From positions 1 to 18,704 of the forward strand of contig JBIKWQ010000066.1 in assembly GCA_044356215.1 (NCBI GenBank): a stretch of DNA of 18,704 bases, read 5' to 3'. This DNA comes from Bdellovibrionota bacterium (GTDB taxonomy: Bacteria > Bdellovibrionota_C > UBA2361 > OMII01). Under the pieces are notes generated by a model, which saw only the letters and a program-made list of their open reading frames with translations, had not been told where the DNA came from and searched no databases. A program made the position numbers and the translations under genes. This document shows positions 745-13,762 of this stretch, one piece after another (the first letter of the stretch is position 1; the number at the start of each line of letters is the position of its first letter).

Positions 745-790
745 GCAAGGCCGGCAAAACCTCGCTATGGGTAGGTTTTGCCGGCCTTCC
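745..790. mobile_element. 46-bp internally deleted copy of the IS5-like MITE; probable bidirectional terminator
   Basis: Left end GCAAGGCCGGCAAAACC is fused to the last 29 bp of the element (TCGCTATGGGTAGGTTTTGCCGGCCTTCC). Flanks are CTAG (741-744) and CTAA (791-794). Forms a 16-bp perfect stem (747-762/773-788) between convergent genes. Confidence 0.75.
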
Positions 791-1776: not shown

Positions 1777-1817
1777 ATGGGAGGTAATTACGTCTTAGAA
1801 TCAGGTTGAAATCGCCT

Positions 1818-3635
1818 ATGAACATCCTTGGAATATCAGCTTTCTATCACGACAGCGCGGCTTGCCTAATCAGCGATGGCAAGATAATCGCGGCCGCTCA
1901 AGAGGAGCGCTTTACTCGTAAGAAACACGATCCAGATTTCCCAAAACACGCGGCGGCGTATTGCCTTAAGGCGGGAGGGATCACGATTAAAGATGTCAAC
2001 TTCGTGGCGTTCTACGACAAGCCACTCTTAAAGTTTGAGCGTTTGTTAGAGACCTACCTCGCCACGGCCCCTCAAGGATACACATCTTATGCGCGGGCGA
2101 TGCCTCTTTGGTTAAAGCACAAGTTGTGGATCCCAGATACGATCAAGAGTGAGCTTGGCTATGATGGTGAGGTGCTGTTTACTGAGCACCACCAGAGCCA
2201 CGCGGGGTCGGCGTTTTATCCATCGCCTTTTCAAGAGGCGGCGATCTTAACGATCGATGGAGTTGGGGAGTGGACGACTAATAGCCTCGGAGTTGGTAAG
2301 GGGAACCTCTTCTCGATCATGCGCGAGATCAAGTTCCCGCACTCGGTTGGGTTGCTCTACTCAGCGTTTACTTATTTCACCGGTTTTAAGGTTAATTCGG
2401 GTGAGTACAAGGTCATGGGACTGGCTCCATACGGAGAGCCACGTTACGTTCAGAAGATCTACGACAATCTATTTGACCTACGTGACGATGGCTCGTATCA
2501 CCTCAACTTAAAGTATTTTAATTATATGGAAGGCCTCTCGATGACTAACGAGGGGTTTGATCAACTCTTTGATGGCCCCCGTCGTAAGCCAGAGAGCCCC
2601 TTAACGCAGCGCGAGATGGATCTCGCCGCGTCGATTCAGGTGGTGGTTGAGGAGTGCATGATCCGTCAGGCCAATTTCCTGCACCGTGAGACCGGCTTAA
2701 ACAATCTCTGTATGGCGGGCGGTGTAGCGCTTAACTGTGTCGGTAACGGCAAGCTACTTCGAAGTGGACCGTTTAAAAACATCTGGATCCAGCCAGCCGC
2801 TGGCGATGCGGGGGGCGCGTTGGGAGCGGCCTTGTGCACTTGGTACGGATACCTAAACAATCCACGCCACACCAACGAGCATACCGACTCACAGAGACAA
2901 TCACTCTTAGGGCCTGAATTCAGCGATGAAGAGACTGTATCACAGCTCGCGCAATTTGGCGCTGTAACGAAGCGCGTTCAGGGGGATGAGTTGTTTAAGG
3001 TAACAGCCGATCTGCTAGCGCAAGAGAAAGTTATCGGCTGGTTCCAAGGTCGGATGGAGTTTGGGCCTAGAGCTTTGGGAAATCGAAGTATCTTAGGTGA
3101 TCCTCGTTCGCAAGCTATGCAGGCGACGATGAACTTGAAGATCAAGTTCCGTGAGTCCTTCAGACCCTTCGCTCCAGCGGTTATGCGAGAGCACGTATCA
3201 GAATACTTCGATCTGGATTACGACTCTCCTTACATGTTGATGGTGGCGCCGGTGAGCGAGAAGCGCCGCGTAGCGATGACACCAGATCAAGAGAAACTGT
3301 TCGGTATAGCGAAGTTAAATGTACCGAAGTCTGATATACCGGCGGTAACGCACGTTGATTATTCGGCGCGTATTCAAACCGTCACGGTGTCGCAACACCC
3401 AACTTTTTACAAGTTACTAGCGGCTTTCAAAGCCAAAACAGGATGTCCTGTTTTGGTAAACACGAGCTTTAACGTTCGTGGAGAGCCGATCGTATGTACG
3501 CCGGCGGACGCTTACGCGTGCTTTATGAGAACTAACATGGACGCTCTCATAATCGGCAATATCGTGATGTTGAAAGAGGAGCAGCCAAAGTGGCAGGAGC
3601 GCGAAGATTGGAAGACGAAATTCGAGTTGGATTAG
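1818..3635 (+). CDS. Carbamoyltransferase, NodU/CmcH (SxtI-like) family
   Basis: MNILGISAFYHDSAA, QEERFTRKKH, EHHQSHA, DGVGEW, GEYKVMGLAPYG, AGGVALNC, EFGPRALGNRS, FRPFAP, NTSFN. ATG 1818 preferred over TTG 1806. Confidence 0.95.
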   Translation: MNILGISAFYHDSAACLISDGKIIAAAQEERFTRKKHDPDFPKHAAAYCLKAGGITIKDVNFVAFYDKPLLKFERLLETYLATAPQGYTSYARAMPLWLKHKLWIPDTIKSELGYDGEVLFTEHHQSHAGSAFYPSPFQEAAILTIDGVGEWTTNSLGVGKGNLFSIMREIKFPHSVGLLYSAFTYFTGFKVNSGEYKVMGLAPYGEPRYVQKIYDNLFDLRDDGSYHLNLKYFNYMEGLSMTNEGFDQLFDGPRRKPESPLTQREMDLAASIQVVVEECMIRQANFLHRETGLNNLCMAGGVALNCVGNGKLLRSGPFKNIWIQPAAGDAGGALGAALCTWYGYLNNPRHTNEHTDSQRQSLLGPEFSDEETVSQLAQFGAVTKRVQGDELFKVTADLLAQEKVIGWFQGRMEFGPRALGNRSILGDPRSQAMQATMNLKIKFRESFRPFAPAVMREHVSEYFDLDYDSPYMLMVAPVSEKRRVAMTPDQEKLFGIAKLNVPKSDIPAVTHVDYSARIQTVTVSQHPTFYKLLAAFKAKTGCPVLVNTSFNVRGEPIVCTPADAYACFMRTNMDALIIGNIVMLKEEQPKWQEREDWKTKFELD

Positions 3636-3643
3636 AGCAGTCA

Positions 3644-4105
3644 GTGGTAGAAGCTTCGGCGCCGGCGCTAGCAGCGGAGGTAGATCCGTTGGAGGTTGTG
3701 TCTTTTGGTAAGACTACCCGTCAGCATGTGCGTGAATTCGGCGCTCTGTTCGGGGTAATCTGCCTAGCAGTTGCTGGATGGAGATTATATCGTGGTCACG
3801 ATTTCGCCCCAACGGCGGGGTGGCTAGTCGCTGGTGTGCTTTTTGGGTCTCTTGGTTTTTTCGCGCCGCGATTACTGATGCCTGTTTGGCGGGCATGGAT
3901 GAAATTCGCGCACTACCTATCGATAGTGATGACAGCGGTGCTTTTAACAGTCACCTGGTGCGTGGGCTTTTTGCCGATGGCGTTCGCTTTAAAGGTCTTA
4001 GGCATAAGGCGTATGGATACATCTTTTAAAGCGGACAGGGCTACTTACTGGGAGCCGCGAGACCAAAAATACGATGATTTCAAACGCTTAGAACTTCAGT
4101 ACTAG
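3644..4105 (+). CDS. SxtJ-family membrane protein
   Basis: REFG motif, hydrophobic helices, VWRAWMKFAHYL, TYWEPR and terminal QY. Lies directly after the carbamoyltransferase, as is typical for this family. Start uncertain (GTG 3644 chosen; the ORF is open from 3590). Confidence 0.8.
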   Translation: MVEASAPALAAEVDPLEVVSFGKTTRQHVREFGALFGVICLAVAGWRLYRGHDFAPTAGWLVAGVLFGSLGFFAPRLLMPVWRAWMKFAHYLSIVMTAVLLTVTWCVGFLPMAFALKVLGIRRMDTSFKADRATYWEPRDQKYDDFKRLELQY

Positions 4106-4710: not shown

Positions 4711-5844
4711 ATGGCAGACCAAATTAATCCCCTAGACCTAGGTATCCGTTTTATCGTTGAGCCTTCTGGGCCGGTGCTATTAGATCATGAGGCTCGCGCG
4801 CTACAAGACCTACGCCCCGCTGGAATTATGCTACGCAAGCGTAATTTTAAGCAGAATGAACCCTACGATAGTTGGCTTAAGACCTATCGAGATCTCTTAT
4901 TAAGTTGCAGGCAGGCTATCGGGCGTGAATCGATAGTGGTTTCAATCGACCACGAAGGTGGCGCGGTGCATCGATTCCCAGAGCCGATTACGCGATTTCC
5001 ATACGCCGCTACCTATGGCGCCAATCAGGAGTGTGTTTTCGAGGTGGCGTCGATGATGGGCGCTGAGCTCGCGGCTCTCGGGATCAACGTATCTTTCTCT
5101 CCAGTCGCTGATATTCACTCAAACCCAAGTAATCCGGTGATTAATCAGCGCGCCTTTGGAACCGAGCCGGAAGGGGTCGCGGCCGCGGCGATCGCGTGCG
5201 CGCGAGGGCTGCGCCAGAATGGGGTTATTCCATGCGCTAAACACTTCCCTGGACACGGCGATACCGCCACTGATTCTCATTTCTCAGTTCCGGTCCTGTC
5301 GGCGAGTATCGATGATTTGCGTAAGCGCGAACTCGCCCCGTTTAAAGCACTGATTGATTCGGGGATCGAGTTAATCATGACAGCTCACATTATGGTTCCT
5401 AGTCTAGATCCCGATAATCAAGCGACCATCTCGCCAAGGATCCTGACCGACCTTTTGCGAAGTGAGTTGGGCTTTAAGGGGCTAACGGTAGCGGATGCCC
5501 TCGGTATGAGTGGTATCAAGGACCAGGTCGCGGGAGAGGCGTTTGGTGTTACAGCGCATAATGCTGGGCTAGATCTATTCCTGTTTGTAGGTGACAACGT
5601 ATCGATCGATGACGCTGTCTTGGCGCGAGATAGGTTAAGTAACGCCGAAGCGGCGGGTCACTTGGATCGTAGTTCACTCCTGAAAGTTCAGACTAGGGTC
5701 GGTTCATTCATCGACCTGCTTCCAAGAAATGAACCGATCATTATTGCGGCTGAGGACTTAAGGAGACACTCCGAGTTGGCGCGTAAGCTCAAGGAGAACG
5801 CCCCCTGGAGTGACTTTAAATTCAGTCCCGAGGGGTTTTACTAA
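4711..5844 (+). CDS. nagZ: Beta-N-acetylhexosaminidase, GH3 (NagZ)
   Basis: SIDHEGGAVHR, PVADI, the KHFPGHGDTATDSH signature, IMTAHI, LRSELGFKG..VADALGM. Confidence 0.88.
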   Translation: MADQINPLDLGIRFIVEPSGPVLLDHEARALQDLRPAGIMLRKRNFKQNEPYDSWLKTYRDLLLSCRQAIGRESIVVSIDHEGGAVHRFPEPITRFPYAATYGANQECVFEVASMMGAELAALGINVSFSPVADIHSNPSNPVINQRAFGTEPEGVAAAAIACARGLRQNGVIPCAKHFPGHGDTATDSHFSVPVLSASIDDLRKRELAPFKALIDSGIELIMTAHIMVPSLDPDNQATISPRILTDLLRSELGFKGLTVADALGMSGIKDQVAGEAFGVTAHNAGLDLFLFVGDNVSIDDAVLARDRLSNAEAAGHLDRSSLLKVQTRVGSFIDLLPRNEPIIIAAEDLRRHSELARKLKENAPWSDFKFSPEGFY

Positions 5845-5886
5845 GGAAGGCCGACAAAACCCCTCCCTACTGCGAAAGCGGATCTT

Positions 5887-6049
5887 TAGGGCATCGCAGT
5901 TCTTTATCACCACAGAGGACGCAGAGGACACAGAGAACGGCCATTTTATCGGCAATTATGGGGTTTTCTCTGTGTCCTCTGCGTCCTCTGTGGTGAAAAA
6001 TATTTTACTAATTGTCTCAGCAACTTTCCAAAAACACTGCGACGCCCTG
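5887..6049. mobile_element. Nested 163-bp MITE with 9-bp target duplication (ISAs1-like ends)
   Basis: GCGGATCTT is duplicated at 5878-5886 and 6050-6058 but is single in the 13301-13483 copy. TIRs TAGGGCATCGCAGT / ACTGCGACGCCCTG (12/14 match). Confidence 0.85.
5907..5996. repeat. Perfect 31-bp inverted repeat built from 9-nt CRCAGAGGA units
   Basis: TCACCACAGAGGACGCAGAGGACACAGAGAA (5907-5937) and its exact reverse complement (5966-5996), with a 28-nt spacer. Confidence 0.95.
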
Positions 6050-6108
6050 GCGGATCTTGAGCTGCTCTTCGAGTTTTCGAGATGGGAAAAAATCCTCAAT
6101 GTATCACA

Positions 6109-6157
6109 GACTTCGGCGAGCTCAGTCGAGCCGAGCTCGCCGAAGTCAGTCGAGCCG
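6109..6157. repeat. REP-like palindrome insert
   Basis: 15-bp perfect stem GACTTCGGCGAGCTC (6109-6123)/(6133-6147) plus direct repeat TCAGTCGAGCCG (6122-6133, 6146-6157). Absent from the 13301-13483 copy. Confidence 0.8.
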
Positions 6158-6165
6158 GGGATACA

Positions 6166-6238
6166 TCTCCGGCCTTCGCTAAAGCTACGGCCGGCGAGAT
6201 AATGTAGGACCGGACGTAGCCTTGGCGGAGTCTGGTCC
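6166..6238. repeat. Inverted pair of GTAG-type REP-like hairpins
   Basis: CCGGCC-TTCGCTAAAGCTAC-GGCCGG (6169-6194) and GGACCGGAC-GTAGCCTTGGCGGA-GTCTGGTCC (6207-6238). The cores are near reverse complements. Absent from the 13301-13483 copy. Confidence 0.75.
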
Positions 6239-6315
6239 GGTTTTTTCCCATCTCGAAAATCGAATATCAACTCAACCTCCACTTTCTCGCTACGGGTAGG
6301 TTTTGCCGGCCTTCC

Positions 6316-6702
6316 TTAATGAACGATGATCTTCTTGCTACCCTCGCCACCGTTTGTGAAGTCGGTGATGTCTATGTCAGGCTTTGAATCGAATGGATCG
6401 ATCGATGAGCCCCTCGTTTTTCCACTTCCATAAAGCGATCCGCCCAGGGTCCCCTCAAAGCTCTTAGCTAGGGTGTTTATCTGCTTTCTTAGCATAATCA
6501 CTTTGTACGCGGCGTAGCAGAGAAGCCCACCGAGTACTAAGAGACAGAATGCTATCGCTCCAAGCACAAACCTTGGGGCTAGTAATACGACGATTCCTAA
6601 AGCTATCAGGAGGAAACCCGGCAAGAAGGGTATCCCTCTTTTAGGTGATAGAAAAATCGCTCCTGAGATGACTCTGTTGCTTTTGGGGCGAACTTTGACC
6701 AT
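6316..6702 (-). CDS. Hypothetical membrane protein (2 TM helices)
   Basis: 128-aa ORF with ATG start, basic N-terminus and two hydrophobic helices. Its stop abuts the MITE end. Confidence 0.75.
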   Translation of the reverse strand: MVKVRPKSNRVISGAIFLSPKRGIPFLPGFLLIALGIVVLLAPRFVLGAIAFCLLVLGGLLCYAAYKVIMLRKQINTLAKSFEGTLGGSLYGSGKTRGSSIDPFDSKPDIDITDFTNGGEGSKKIIVH

Positions 6703-12017: not shown

Positions 12018-13656
12018 CTAAAACTTCAGCCCAAAGTCTCTTGAAAAAGGCGGTATCATTTTAGGTCGGCTACCTACTTCATACTCCTCATAGCTCGCGA
12101 TATCGTAGAATCGCTTTTTCAACATAGAAAGTTCGTGCACCCCAGTTAGACAGATTTTATTTGTAATAGTTGGAAAATTAGGCCTTACATGGTCAGAAAG
12201 CTTTAAAGCTGAGGCGATAAAATTCACGACCATACCAACGTAGAGACTATCGCTCCTATAGTCAAAGACGTGACATTCTCCAGCTCCTTTTTCATAGGGG
12301 CCGGGCACATATACTATGTATGGCGGAATCTCTGCCGCATCTGGTTCGCGCGGATTAGTCACTTTAGGAACCCCGAAGCACACTAACAGACGCGCGAAGT
12401 CGTTGTTCACCGCGTCAAATCCGAAGAAAGTAGAATTTAGCTCCTTTCCAAAGATCACATTGTGGCACGTCTTTCCCGCGAAAAATGTTAACGCGCCCGC
12501 GGTGTCATCAAACAATTGATATTGCGGATGATCTCTAAGCGCCCGCGCATACCTTACGCGCTGTCCTTTAACATCTAGTCTTAGCTTTTCGCTCTTAGTC
12601 AGCTGTTCAAATAAGAGAGCAGAAAAGAAAGCATGTATGCCACAGTCGTTGGCAATCCCAACGCCAAGGTCAAACCCCTTTTGGTCTTCAACACTTTTAT
12701 TCCGCTGCAGAAGTCCATACTGCCCAGGCAGGCCGTTTCTATCCGAGTCCACCGCCCATGACTCTACGCAGTACGAATTTACTAAGAGGGCATCACCGAA
12801 CCGTCTTAGAAGGTCCTGACCGACCTTCGACATAAGCCATTGAAAGGGCGCCGTTCCCATGACCCAGTCAATGTGATTTATGCGATCGGGATTATTGGCA
12901 GCTAAATTAGCCATCGTATCGATTTCATCGGGTAAGCATGCTGGCTTCTCATTGTAGATGGGCGCTCCCGTATTACCAACGTAATACTCGCAGGTAGGAA
13001 GGTGAAGCGCTGGTGGAGTGGCGTTAAAAACACCCTTGATTGAGGATAATCGGTCCATGCCTAGCGTGCCGCTGGCGCAGTACTCATAATCGACCCGCAT
13101 ATTCCTTAAAACGCTCTCGATGCCGGCGCCGTTCTTCGTTCCCGCAAGCTCATAAATGGAGGCTGCATCGGTAAGAATTAGCTTTAATTTCTGGCGTAAG
13201 TCCGGAACTTGATTAATTACCTGCTCTAACGCAGGGAGTAAGAACGTTTCGGTGAGGTGCCCGCACCCACATATGTTTAAAACTAGCTCTGAGTTGTTAA
13301 GGAAGGCCGGCAAAACCTACCCGTAGCGAGAAAGTGGAGGTTGAGTTGATATTCGATTTTCGAGATGGGAAAAAACCGCAAGTGTATCCACTGTGATACA
13401 TTGAGGATTTTTTTCCATCTCGAAAACTCGAAGAGCAGCTCAAGATCCGCTTTCGCAGTAGGGAGGGGTTTTGCCGGCCTTCCTTAAGCGACTTCTCCTC
13501 CTCATTAATCGCTGTCAACTGCTCACTATAAATGTGTTTAAAAGGTGAGATCGGATCGCTAGTATAAATCAGCGCATCGGTGTTAACCTTCAACTGAACC
13601 TGATTTTCGGGCCGATAAATCGGCAGTATTGAACCAGCATTAAAAGTTCTTAACAT
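12018..13656 (-). pseudogene. Gfo/Idh/MocA-like oxidoreductase interrupted by a MITE
   Basis: ICGCGHL Rossmann-like, NATPPALH and NEKP motifs. Removing 13301-13483 plus one TTAA fuses the two ORFs in frame (..EEKSL-NNSELV..), giving 483 aa from ATG 13656 (preceded by GAGGA). Confidence 0.75.
13301..13483. mobile_element. 183-bp IS5-like MITE with TTAA target duplication
   Basis: 17-bp perfect TIR GGAAGGCCGGCAAAACC; TTAA at 13297-13300 and 13484-13487; long imperfect internal hairpin 13352-13432; no transposase. Confidence 0.92.
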
Positions 13657-13762
13657 ATGATTCCTCAACCCTTCTTCTCTAGTACAGGCACTTGAAGGTC
13701 TTTTGTAACCTTAAGGGTAAGAAGAACGGCCGAAGCAGACGATTTTCTACGATTGCTCGAAG

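What the first reader, a model, noticed from the sequence alone, without database searches (positions are those of the whole stretch)
5845..6315. Russian-doll element: several distinct palindromic/mobile modules nested inside one MITE
Seen: alignment to the unexpanded sister copy (13301-13483, opposite orientation) accounts for the length exactly: 183 + 172 (163-bp MITE plus 9-bp duplication) + 48 + 68 net = 471. The inner MITE itself contains a perfect 31-bp inverted repeat. The window therefore supplies its own empty-site control showing the inserts are separable. Inference: a layered set of non-autonomous parasites that use one another as safe landing sites, needing several different trans-acting enzymes, none encoded here.
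Basis: partly seen in the sequence, partly recalled or inferred. Interest (0 to 1): 0.8.

Follow-up and report, generated by a model that had tools for sequence, protein, structure and literature searches.

The report
Nested transposon relics with tiny insert
This 471-base stretch is a small gene-less transposon that later took in other small repeats, an ordinary kind of layering, except that one passenger is a 24-base unit found letter for letter in bacteria of many unrelated phyla.

Summary
5845-6315 is a 183-bp palindromic MITE, like its sister at 13301-13483, plus 172 + 48 + 68 bases.

The three inserts are not equivalent, and only one is private to this copy.
- **163-bp insert (5887-6049):** a true, abundant MITE with 155 loci and 9-bp target duplications. 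It sits inside the outer MITE only here, which is no more than chance predicts (0.8-5.7 expected).
- **68-bp insert (6168-6235):** never occurs alone. It defines a 251-bp subfamily (21 of 54 complete copies).
- **48-bp insert (6110-6157):** two copies of a 24-nt unit, also present in a 299-bp copy (C109) and in a second MITE family.

The forms 183, 251, 299 and 471 bp all coexist in this genome.

The outer element behaves like an IS5-type MITE, with GGAAGG ends and YTAR duplications. The 163-bp MITE shares its ends with an IS4/Tn5-like element, not ISAs1.

The 21-mer core of the 24-nt unit occurs exactly in at least 121 loci of many phyla, always after a G and often nested in itself. It looks like an SDR-type very small mobile element with an unknown mover. 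The "safe landing site" idea is not supported.

The parts
5841..5844 (+). Left target duplication of the outer MITE (CTAA). It contains the TAA stop of the GH3-family gene 4711-5844.
   Evidence: 44 of 54 complete copies have YTAR on both flanks. Here the flanks are CTAA / TTAA, one mismatch.
5845..5886 (+). Outer MITE, left arm. The terminal inverted repeat GGAAGGCCGACAAAACC is at 5845-5861. The last 9 bases, GCGGATCTT, are the target of the inner MITE.
5887..6049 (+). Inner 163-bp MITE ('M1'). Its ends are TAGGGCATCGCAGT / ACTGCGACGCCCTG. It holds a perfect 31-bp inverted repeat at 5907-5937 / 5966-5996.
   Evidence: 155 loci and 76 full copies; 37 of 76 have a perfect 9-bp duplication and 52 of 76 have at most 2 mismatches., I2.
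6050..6058 (+). Second copy of the 9-bp target duplication GCGGATCTT made by the inner MITE.
   Evidence: (D4).
6059..6109 (+). Outer MITE, left half of the central hairpin up to the apical loop (..TGTATCACAG).
6110..6133 (+). First 24-nt unit of 'M2' (ACTTCGGCGAGCTCAGTCGAGCCG), inserted after a G in the apical loop of the outer hairpin.
   Evidence: filled and empty paralogues. (exact 21-mer in 121 loci of many phyla, preceded by G in 125 of 125).
6134..6157 (+). Second 24-nt unit of 'M2'. Its first 13 nt are the reverse complement of those of unit 1, and its last 11 nt are the same, so the pair forms a 13-bp stem.
   Evidence: (D2, I4). The same doublet occurs at C109:4548-4595 and C52:15783-15830.
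6158..6167 (+). Outer MITE, right half of the apical hairpin (GGGATACATC; the short copy has TGGATACACT).
6168..6235 (+). 68-bp 'M3', two hairpins. Their loops carry the motif CTTCGCTAAAGCTAC (6174-6188) and its inverted relative GTAGCCTTGGCGGAG (6216-6230). This module defines the 251-bp subfamily.
   Evidence: 21 of 54 complete copies; never alone. (motif census).
6236..6315 (+). Outer MITE, right arm. The terminal inverted repeat GGTTTTGCCGGCCTTCC is at 6299-6315.
   Evidence: 100% identical to the sister copy.
6316..6319 (+). Right target duplication (TTAA). It contains the stop codon of the minus-strand ORF 6316-6702.
13301..13483 (-). Sister copy of the outer MITE in its basic 183-bp form, flanked by TTAA / TTAA.

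Best explanation
The 471-bp stretch is one copy of an IS5-type MITE built up in steps. Each step still exists as a separate form in the same genome.

**Step 0, the basic MITE.** It is 183 bp and forms one long hairpin. It has GGAAGG... terminal inverted repeats and inserts at YTAR with a 4-bp duplication.

**Step 1, the 68-bp module.** A double-hairpin module lies just 3' of the hairpin tip. The composite then spread as a 251-bp subfamily.

**Step 2, the 24-nt unit.** A 48-nt doublet of a 24-nt micro-element sits in the apical loop after a G, giving the 299-bp form seen at C109.

**Step 3, the 163-bp MITE.** In this copy alone, a MITE of a different family (ends TAGGGCRTCGCAG) transposed into the left arm and duplicated 9 bp of it.

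**Shown**
- The anatomy.
- The target duplications.
- The copy counts.
- The coexistence of the intermediates.
- Filled and empty paralogues for the 24-nt unit.

**Inferred**
- The order of the steps.
- That the outer element is moved by an IS5-group transposase. None with matching ends was found.
- That the 163-bp MITE is moved by an IS4/Tn5-like transposase whose copies are collapsed at contig ends.
- That the 24-nt unit is itself a very small mobile element copied by an unidentified trans-acting enzyme.

The nesting of the 163-bp MITE is a chance hit, not a strategy.
For: **Anatomy and arithmetic:**

**Outer family**
- 110 loci and 54 complete copies: 29 of 181-184 bp, 21 of 248-252 bp, and one each of 237, 263, 299 and 471 bp.
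- 44 of 54 have YTAR on both flanks and 35 of 54 have identical 4-mers.
- YTAR is the documented IS5 duplication (PMC5009759, passages).
- Relatives carry mostly 182-183-bp copies. The full 68-bp module appears in only 2 of the 34 other genus genomes searched. The short form is therefore the older one.

**163-bp MITE**
- 155 loci, 76 full length, and 37 of 76 with perfect 9-bp duplications.
- One copy lies inside the outer family.

**Intermediate form**
- C109:4390-4688 (299 bp) aligns to the whole part of the window copy right of the inner MITE at 96.6% over 266 nt.

**24-nt unit**
- Exact 24-nt increments between filled and empty copies of two MITE families.
- 14 of 35 genus genomes have it, against 0 hits for the reversed control. 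One genome has 12 matches, 11 of them carrying the same T-to-C variant.

**Candidate mover of the 163-bp MITE**
- Seven contig ends begin with 19 of 19 bases of its terminus.
- Seven more begin with TAGGGCTTCGCAGC followed by an ORF with a DruA domain.
- A 751-aa relative in G044 has DruA, Tnp_DNA_bind, DDE_Tnp_1 and Dimer_Tnp_Tn5.
- I recall, from no call, that Tn5/IS50 makes 9-bp duplications.
Against: **No autonomous partner for the outer MITE**
- No IS with the outer MITE's ends was found. The only PF01609 hit in the genome is an unrelated IS4-type element.
- The eight DUF772 loci fetched from the genus searches do not carry the GGAAGG ends.
- That IS5 itself ends in GGAAGG is recalled, not tested.

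**The two extra modules are not clean single gains**
- The 68-bp module and the 24-nt unit are each present or absent in both terminal-repeat lineages of the outer MITE (GGAAGGCCGG and GGAAGCGAGG).
- A single gain followed by vertical spread is therefore too simple. Recurrent site-specific gain or loss, or recombination between copies, is needed.
- In G015 a diverged unit and the 68-bp module already sit together in the outer MITE, so part of the layering is old.

**The link to the Tn5-like element is incomplete**
- Its interior is not assembled.
- The two kinds of contig end were not shown to belong to one element.

**Junctions rest on one assembly**
- The nested junctions rest on one metagenome-assembled contig.
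- The laid public contigs do not bridge them.
- However, the 9-bp duplication of outer sequence around the inner MITE is hard to get from a mis-join.
Confidence: 0.8

Rival explanations
1. Deletion series. The 471-bp form, or a long composite, is ancestral, and the 299-, 251- and 183-bp forms arose from it by internal deletions.
For: The 68-bp module is never seen alone. It is present or absent in both end-lineages at exactly the same junction. Precise loss could produce that pattern.
Against: - Only 1 of 54 complete copies is 471 bp and 1 is 299 bp.
- The inner MITE is flanked by a 9-bp duplication of outer sequence that is present once in every other copy. That is the signature of insertion.
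- Relatives carry mainly 182-183-bp copies.
- The 24-nt unit is also found in unrelated hosts.
Confidence: 0.04
2. Mosaic by recombination. The 48-bp and 68-bp modules were not inserted by any transposition. They were moved between palindromic repeats by gene conversion, template switching at hairpin tips or illegitimate recombination. Only the 163-bp element is a transposition.
For: - Both modules are polymorphic in both end-lineages.
- The window's 68-bp module mixes features of the two subfamily variants.
- In G011 the outer MITE's central hairpin plus the 68-bp module sits inside a MITE with quite different arms.
- The second 24-nt unit is a half-inverted copy of the first. This is the pattern that an intrastrand template switch gives (inference).
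Against: - Recombination between repeats does not explain an identical 21-mer in 121 loci of many phyla with unrelated flanks, always after a G, with a preferred CGG^YG context and self-nesting.
- It also does not explain exact 24-nt increments in two unrelated MITE families.
Confidence: 0.12
3. Functional structured element. The composite is kept because its hairpins act as a terminator, an mRNA stabiliser or a protein-binding site between two convergent genes, and the modules are functional parts.
For: - It lies between convergent genes whose stop codons are in the target duplications.
- It folds very strongly.
- Single hairpins with the 68-bp module's loop motif look like terminators next to tRNA genes: C52:2094-2251 and C12:20999-21164, and L014 in a relative.
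Against: - No Rfam family reaches its threshold.
- The copies sit in 110 unrelated places with transposon-type duplications.
- Only this copy has this combination.
- Orthologous gene ends in G044 and G006 have no such element.
Confidence: 0.04

Closest known systems
IS5-group insertion sequences and their MITEs
   Same: It duplicates a 4-bp YTAR target: 44 of 54 copies have YTAR on both flanks. The IS5 motif is documented in PMC5009759. It is short, has no gene, has terminal inverted repeats, and has many copies between genes.
   Different: No full-length IS with these ends was found in this genome or in the genus loci examined. The GGAAGG resemblance to IS5 ends is recalled only.
Nested MITEs (well known in plant genomes; recalled for cyanobacteria such as Microcystis and Anabaena)
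   Same: One MITE is inserted in another with its own target duplication, and a paralogous 'empty' copy exists.
   Different: Here the layers include units far smaller than a MITE. My phrase searches found no paper describing nested MITEs in prokaryotes. The cyanobacterial cases are from memory.
Small dispersed repeats SDR4-6 of Nostocaceae (Elhai et al. 2008, Genome Res 18:1484). The paper is not held, so I know it only from recall and from passages citing it.
   Same: The unit is 24 nt, which lies within the 21-27 nt range I recall for SDRs (from no call). It can form a hairpin. It is inserted exactly, nests in itself and in MITEs, and has no gene.
   Different: - The sequence is different.
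- It is found in at least a dozen phylum-level labels, not one family. A citing paper states that no SDR was found outside Nostocaceae among HIP1-rich cyanobacteria (PMC5861425).
- Copy number per genome is low, 1-12 matches in the 14 genus genomes that have it.
REP/REPIN elements with RAYT transposases (PMC3116915 abstract and passages; PMC3733652 passages)
   Same: The 68-bp module is an inverted doublet of short hairpins that carries a GTAG tetranucleotide. The genome encodes a RAYT: NF047646, 88.2 bits against a cut-off of 80.
   Different: - GTAG lies in the loop with variable stems, not at the foot of a conserved stem.
- The RAYT gene is flanked by a different repeat.
- The module is not dispersed on its own.
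Ssn GIY-YIG single-strand nucleases and their SRM/NTS hairpin repeats (Chenal et al. 2025, PMC11893778; abstract and sections 6, 7, 10 read)
   Same: A single-domain 81-aa GIY-YIG gene (C75) is followed at once by an array holding 8 of the genome's 78 copies of the motif that fills the 68-bp module's loops. That is the gene-beside-its-repeat pattern of Ssn.
   Different: - The motif is not the NTS/SRM sequence printed in the paper.
- Membership of cd10448 could not be tested.
- The repeats are seen on one side only, and the contig ends there.
- No activity is known.

Membership tests
IS5-group MITE (outer element) | 4-bp target duplication YTAR | tested here: met
   44 of 54 complete copies have YTAR on both flanks, 35 of 54 have identical 4-mers, and 53 of 54 have it on at least one flank. 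The motif is documented for IS5 in PMC5009759.
IS5-group MITE (outer element) | Terminal inverted repeats shared with a full-length IS5-family element | tested here: not met
   No such IS was found in this assembly or in the 8 DUF772 loci of the genus. MAG assemblies often drop IS copies, so this is weak negative evidence.
MITE in general (outer and 163-bp elements) | Short, no coding capacity, terminal inverted repeats, many copies, target duplications | tested here: met
   The ORFs 5810-6202 and 5956-6282 lie wholly inside repeat sequence.
IS4 / Tn5-like derived MITE (163-bp element) | 9-bp target duplication | tested here: met
   37 of 76 are perfect and 52 of 76 have at most 2 mismatches. 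That Tn5/IS50 makes 9 bp is recalled.
IS4 / Tn5-like derived MITE (163-bp element) | Ends shared with an element that encodes the transposase | tested here: inconclusive
   The end TAGGGCTTCGCAGC (12 of 14 bases shared with the MITE consensus end) is followed by an ORF with a DruA domain. The G044 relative is DruA + Tn5-type. The interior is not assembled in G000.
   The only PF01609 hit in the genome is an IS4-type gene with DUF4372 and other ends. The gene found beside matching ends is DruA/Tn5-like.
SDR-type very small mobile element (24-nt unit) | Exact short insertion seen as filled versus empty sites | tested here: met
   Exact 24-nt increments in the outer MITE (C18 +24; C109 and window +48) and in a second MITE family (C96, C53, C52 versus 8 empty copies). 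All comparisons are between paralogues, not orthologues.
SDR-type very small mobile element (24-nt unit) | Self-nesting and dispersal to unrelated contexts | tested here: met
   Units lie inside units in L035, L047, L059, L060, L102, L103 and L108. There are 121 loci with unrelated flanks, and no neighbour family is shared by more than 3 loci.
SDR-type very small mobile element (24-nt unit) | Restricted to Nostocaceae, with sequence of SDR1-8 | tested here: not met
   The labels are Planctomycetota, Bdellovibrionota, Chloroflexota, Latescibacterota and others. The SDR sequences themselves could not be compared because the paper is not held.
REPIN / RAYT system (68-bp module) | Repeat flanks the RAYT gene and is dispersed on its own | tested here: not met
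   The RAYT at C53:13043-13684 is flanked by a different repeat. The module is never found outside the outer MITE.
Ssn / SRM system (loop motif of the 68-bp module) | Small single-domain GIY-YIG gene flanked by its hairpin repeat | tested here: met
   An 81-aa GIY-YIG (PF01541, 47.8 bits) is followed by a 29-nt-period array with 8 motif copies. This is seen on one side only.
Ssn / SRM system (loop motif of the 68-bp module) | Protein belongs to cd10448 and cuts the motif as single-stranded DNA | not testable with these tools
   No CDD is on hand. There is no NCBIfam or PDB match.

The most novel reading that the evidence does not exclude
The 48-bp insert is two copies of a 24-nt, gene-less mobile element (G|ACTTCGGCGAGCTCAGTCGAGYCG). 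This element is shared letter for letter by bacteria of a dozen or more phyla, by viral contigs and by a cultured cyanobacterium's plasmid. It inserts after a G, preferring CGG^YG, adds exactly 24 nt (so it stays in frame inside genes), and nests in its own loop. It would be among the smallest and most widely shared mobile DNAs known. Its mover, which is not encoded next to it, is unidentified.
Probability: 0.55. Interest if true: 0.8.

Novelty: new variant of a known kind. Interest (0 to 1): 0.55.

Why it matters
**The nested MITE.** As a nested MITE this is a tidy textbook case. One genome preserves every intermediate (183, 251, 299 and 471 bp). It shows that what looks like several insertions into one copy is mostly inheritance of an already composite subfamily.

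**The passengers.** The wider interest lies in the two small modules.

- *The 24-nt unit.* It is identical across phyla, and in this genome it occupies the same site in several MITE lineages. This points to a very small mobile element with an unknown and presumably widespread mover.
- *The loop motif.* The 68-bp module's loop motif clusters beside a tiny GIY-YIG gene, which gives a directly testable enzyme-substrate pair.

If the 24-nt unit is truly mobile, its exact length of 8 codons and its presence in open reading frames make it a source of in-frame protein variation.

Tried and rejected
- **Rfam.** No family reaches threshold in the window. Only microRNA-like hairpin noise appears below threshold.

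- **Orthologous empty site.** In G044, G006, G007 and G035 the neighbouring gene pair (small ORF and CysRS) is kept, but the GH3 gene is not adjacent. No true empty site could be read. No outer MITE lies there. G007 instead has another MITE with the 163-bp family's ends.

- **Hairpin-loop targeting of the 24-nt unit.** Many single cases look like insertions into hairpin loops. Two tests on the multi-phylum sample show no enrichment.
  - Anchored stems of 5 or more: 21 of 122 against 16 of 122 controls.
  - Folded empty sites: 20 of 117 against 19 and 13 of 117, p = 0.43.
  - I dropped this claim as a general rule. It holds only for the palindromic MITE hosts in this genome.

- **Enzyme next to the unit.**
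  - No protein family recurs in more than 3 of 121 flanks.
  - One flank (L063) has a RAYT-like ORF. There the unit lies between inverted flanks (ggcgggttcg / cgaacccgcc).
  - There are no GIY-YIG hits.

- **Whether the two kinds of contig end belong to one IS.**
  - The C125 piece of a Tn5-like C-terminus has no matching end.
  - The interior is absent from the assembly.
  - A degenerate copy lies beside an IS66 remnant on C82, which left IS66 as an unresolved alternative.

- **Public runs.**
  - 20 of 24 listed runs hold part of the stretch.
  - In the 4 laid, contigs stop inside the terminal repeats.
  - The joints that skip 172, 48 or 128 bases cannot be told from paralogous copies.
  - One run's joints that skip about 390-420 bases have short sides and may come from mini-elements.
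  - This gives no evidence on polymorphism of this locus.

- **Literature.**
  - Elhai 2008 could not be read.
  - The 16-mer of the unit is in no held paper.
  - Phrase searches for nested MITEs in prokaryotes found nothing relevant.
Full report
**1. What is there**

The window is contig C48 of a 3.24-Mb, 131-contig assembly.

The region 5845-6315 and the reverse complement of 13301-13483 align end to end apart from three blocks that are present only in the long copy.
- The shared parts are 95.6-100% identical.
- The blocks are 172 bp (a 163-bp element plus a second copy of GCGGATCTT), 48 bp and a net 68 bp.
- The inner element has a perfect 31-bp inverted repeat within 35-nt arms.
- As single strands, the short copy folds into one long hairpin. 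The long copy folds into the same hairpin with each extra block as its own side hairpin (z = -10.9 and -14.7).

**2. The outer element**

Genome-wide it has 110 loci, many at contig ends.
- 54 copies are complete. 29 are 181-184 bp and 21 are 248-252 bp. There is one each of 237, 263, 299 and 471 bp.
- Its ends are GGAAGGCCGGCAAAACC.
- 44 of 54 copies have YTAR on both flanks, and 35 of 54 have the same 4-mer on both sides.
- YTAR is the documented IS5 duplication (PMC5009759, passages). That IS5 ends begin GGAAGG is my recollection.
- No full-length partner was found. The genome's one PF01609 gene has other ends, and the eight fetched IS5-type (DUF772) loci from the genus search lack these ends.
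- The family is present in 13 of 18 genus genomes first sampled and in 1 of 12 genomes of other families, mostly as 182-183-bp copies at 80-89% identity. The short form is therefore the older one.
- Two named MAG records labelled Bdellovibrionota carry the same family (L034, L107). This suggests where the genus belongs.

**3. The 163-bp insert**

It is a genuine, abundant MITE of another family.
- It has 155 loci, of which 76 are full length.
- 37 of 76 have perfect 9-bp duplications, and 52 of 76 have at most two mismatches.
- Only the window copy lies inside an outer element.
- With 17.6 kb of outer sequence, 0.84 such hits are expected if insertion were uniform over the genome. 5.7 are expected if it were uniform over the 15% of the genome outside long ORFs.
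- Nesting is therefore not enriched, and the 'safe landing site' idea is not supported for this module.

Its ends recur at contig ends in two forms.
- One form (7 ends) shares 19 of 19 terminal bases with the MITE.
- The other (7 ends) reads TAGGGCTTCGCAGC and is followed by an ORF with a DruA/DUF4338 domain.
- A 751-aa relative in G044 has DruA, Tnp_DNA_bind, DDE_Tnp_1 and Dimer_Tnp_Tn5.
- An IS4/Tn5-type mover fits the 9-bp duplication (recalled for Tn5).
- The interior is not assembled. I could not show that both ends belong to one element. A degenerate copy next to an IS66 remnant on C82 leaves some doubt.

**4. The 68-bp block**

All 38 matches of 58 nt or more lie in or against outer-MITE sequence at the same position. 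A 39th, at 78% identity, lies in a degenerate outer copy.
- It is therefore the mark of the 251-bp subfamily, not an insertion private to this copy.
- It is nevertheless a gain. Relatives mostly lack it. A full copy is seen only in G015, inside the outer MITE, and in G011, inside a MITE with different arms that shares the outer element's central hairpin.
- It is present or absent in both end-lineages of the outer MITE (GGAAGGCCGG and GGAAGCGAGG) at one exact junction. This needs recurrent precise gain or loss, or recombination.

The block is two hairpins whose stems vary but whose loops hold a conserved motif, [AT]AGCYTTRGCRAAG, once in each orientation. The genome has 78 copies of this motif, against 0.19 expected. 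They are distributed as follows.

| Location | Copies |
|---|---|
| In or at outer MITEs | 45 |
| 29-nt-period array directly after the genome's only small (81-aa) GIY-YIG gene, C75:3767-4012 | 8 |
| Similar array on C41, beside a tRNA-like 3' end | 14 |
| Elsewhere, several in terminator-like hairpins next to tRNA genes | 11 |

These counts rest. The gene-beside-its-repeat pattern is the one described for Ssn nucleases and their SRM repeats (PMC11893778, abstract and sections 6, 7 and 10). Family membership and activity could not be tested. The genome's RAYT (NF047646) is flanked by a different repeat.

**5. The 48-bp block**

It is two 24-nt units. The second has the first 13 nt inverted and the last 11 nt the same, so the pair forms a 13-bp stem.

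In this genome the unit occurs at about eight loci.
- In the outer MITE it always follows ..CAG at the hairpin tip. It occurs twice in the window and in C109, once in C18, and in a degenerate copy on C89.
- It also lies in the centre of a second palindromic MITE family (C52 twice; C96 and C53 once each). Eight other aligned copies of that family lack it, and the difference is exactly 24 nt.
- C109 is the 299-bp intermediate. It matches the window copy at 96.6% over the 266 nt to the right of the inner MITE.
- The unit sits at the same outer-MITE site in both end-lineages. It is also there in other species (L034, L107, G015).

**6. The unit outside this genome**

The records are labelled Planctomycetota, Bdellovibrionota, Chloroflexota, Latescibacterota, Nitrospinota, Nitrospirae, Desulfobacterales, Bryobacteraceae/Terriglobia, Verrucomicrobia, Gemmatimonadota, Tectomicrobia and others, plus one Promethearchaeota MAG.
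- *Viruses and a plasmid.* It is in 11 stretches of 10 viral contigs. It is also on a plasmid of cultured Picosynechococcus sp. PCC 8807.
- *Within the genus.* 14 of 35 genomes have 1-12 matches with at most 2 mismatches. The reversed control gives none. One genome has 12 matches, 11 of them carrying the same T-to-C variant.
- *Flanks.*
  - The unit is preceded by G in 125 of 125 cases.
  - It is followed by CCG (75) or TCG (42).
  - The context is roughly CGG^YG.
- *Nesting.* Units lie inside units at three positions of their own loop region.
- *Coding context.* 25 of 70 full-length loci have an open frame of 200 aa or more across the unit. In GC-rich DNA that is only suggestive.
- *Hairpin loops.* Insertion into hairpin loops is not enriched in this sample.
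- *Neighbour genes.* No neighbour gene recurs.
- *Literature.* No held paper contains the sequence.

The nearest described class is the small dispersed repeats of Nostocaceae. I know these only from recall and from citing passages, because the paper is not held.

Earlier notes of this scan report other tiny hairpin units shared across phyla, with different sequences. The phenomenon has therefore been seen before in this scan, but this unit has not.

**7. Reading**

The most economical history is 183 bp, then 251 bp (68-bp module), then 299 bp (24-nt unit doublet), then 471 bp (163-bp MITE). Only the last step is private to this copy.
- A deletion series is excluded by the target duplication, the copy counts and the relatives.
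- Recombination between palindromic repeats probably contributes to the patchy distribution of the two small modules. It cannot explain the multi-phylum identity of the 24-nt unit.
- The window itself encodes no transposase.
- The genome holds candidate enzymes for two of the modules, and none was identified for the outer MITE or the 24-nt unit.

**8. Limits**

- All filled-versus-empty comparisons are between paralogues.
- The nested junctions rest on one metagenome-assembled contig, and public contigs did not bridge them.
- IS interiors are missing from the assembly.
- The supplements of the Ssn paper, which list SRM variants and homologues, were not consulted.

Noticed in passing
window 745-790: A 46-bp mini-version of the outer MITE. 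It is just the two terminal repeats (GCAAGGCCGGCAAAACC ... GGTTTTGCCGGCCTTCC) around a few bases. Similar 23-50-bp remnants flanked by YTAR occur at C1:10250, C88:22185, C27:11518, C7:23502, C17:505 and C127:4568. They could be internal-deletion derivatives or excision leftovers.
   Followed up: partly
window 5842-5844, 6316-6318, 13297-13299: The YTAR target duplications of the outer MITE supply the stop codons of the adjoining genes: the GH3-family gene, the minus-strand ORF 6316-6702 and the minus-strand ORF 13297-13668. Because YTAR always contains TAA or TAG on one strand, this MITE can land on a stop codon and give it back.
   Followed up: no
G000 C75:3767-4294 (L182) and C41:5000-5823 (L183): An 81-aa single-domain GIY-YIG gene is followed by seven 29-nt repeats (ATGGCAAGCCCACACACTTCGCTAAAGCT). 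A larger array of the same units lies on C41, next to a tRNA-like 3' end. The pattern resembles an Ssn nuclease with its repeat.
   Followed up: partly
G000 C53:13043-13684; C37:34642-35607; C60:16191-16898: A RAYT (NF047646) is flanked upstream by repeats of GCGCGCCGGAGGCGCGC...GGGTAGG. Two further weak Y1_Tnp-like ORFs lie among GTAGCCGGGCTAC hairpins. These are separate REP-like families in the same genome.
   Followed up: partly
G000 C100:1-127 versus window 5887-6013: In another copy of the 163-bp MITE, the 28-nt spacer between the perfect 31-bp inverted repeats is inverted relative to the window copy. Flipping between the arms would give this result.
   Followed up: no
G000 C82:43325-46963 (L025): An IS66-type remnant (TnpB_IS66 and the start of TnpC) is cut by an intact IS4-type element (392 aa, DUF4372 + DDE_Tnp_1). 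It is followed by a degenerate copy of the end shared with the 163-bp MITE. This is another nested arrangement.
   Followed up: partly
G036 (genus relative), 12 places listed: This genome has 12 matches to the 24-nt unit's core. 11 of them carry the same T-to-C change (ACCTCG...), and 8 of those carry it as the only change. This suggests amplification of a local variant within one genome.
   Followed up: no
L043 and L083 (Bryobacteraceae and Tepidisphaeraceae MAG records); L061: The 24-nt unit lies in frame inside long open frames, read as ..DFGELSRA.. In L043 and L083 the frame looks like a DDE transposase.
   Followed up: no
window 1806-4105: A carbamoyltransferase gene (Carbam_trans_N/C) is followed by a small ORF with a weak SxtJ-family match (36.7 bits). 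The window also holds glycosyltransferases, CysRS, a Mur ligase, ApaG and a flagellin gene, an ordinary housekeeping context.
   Followed up: no
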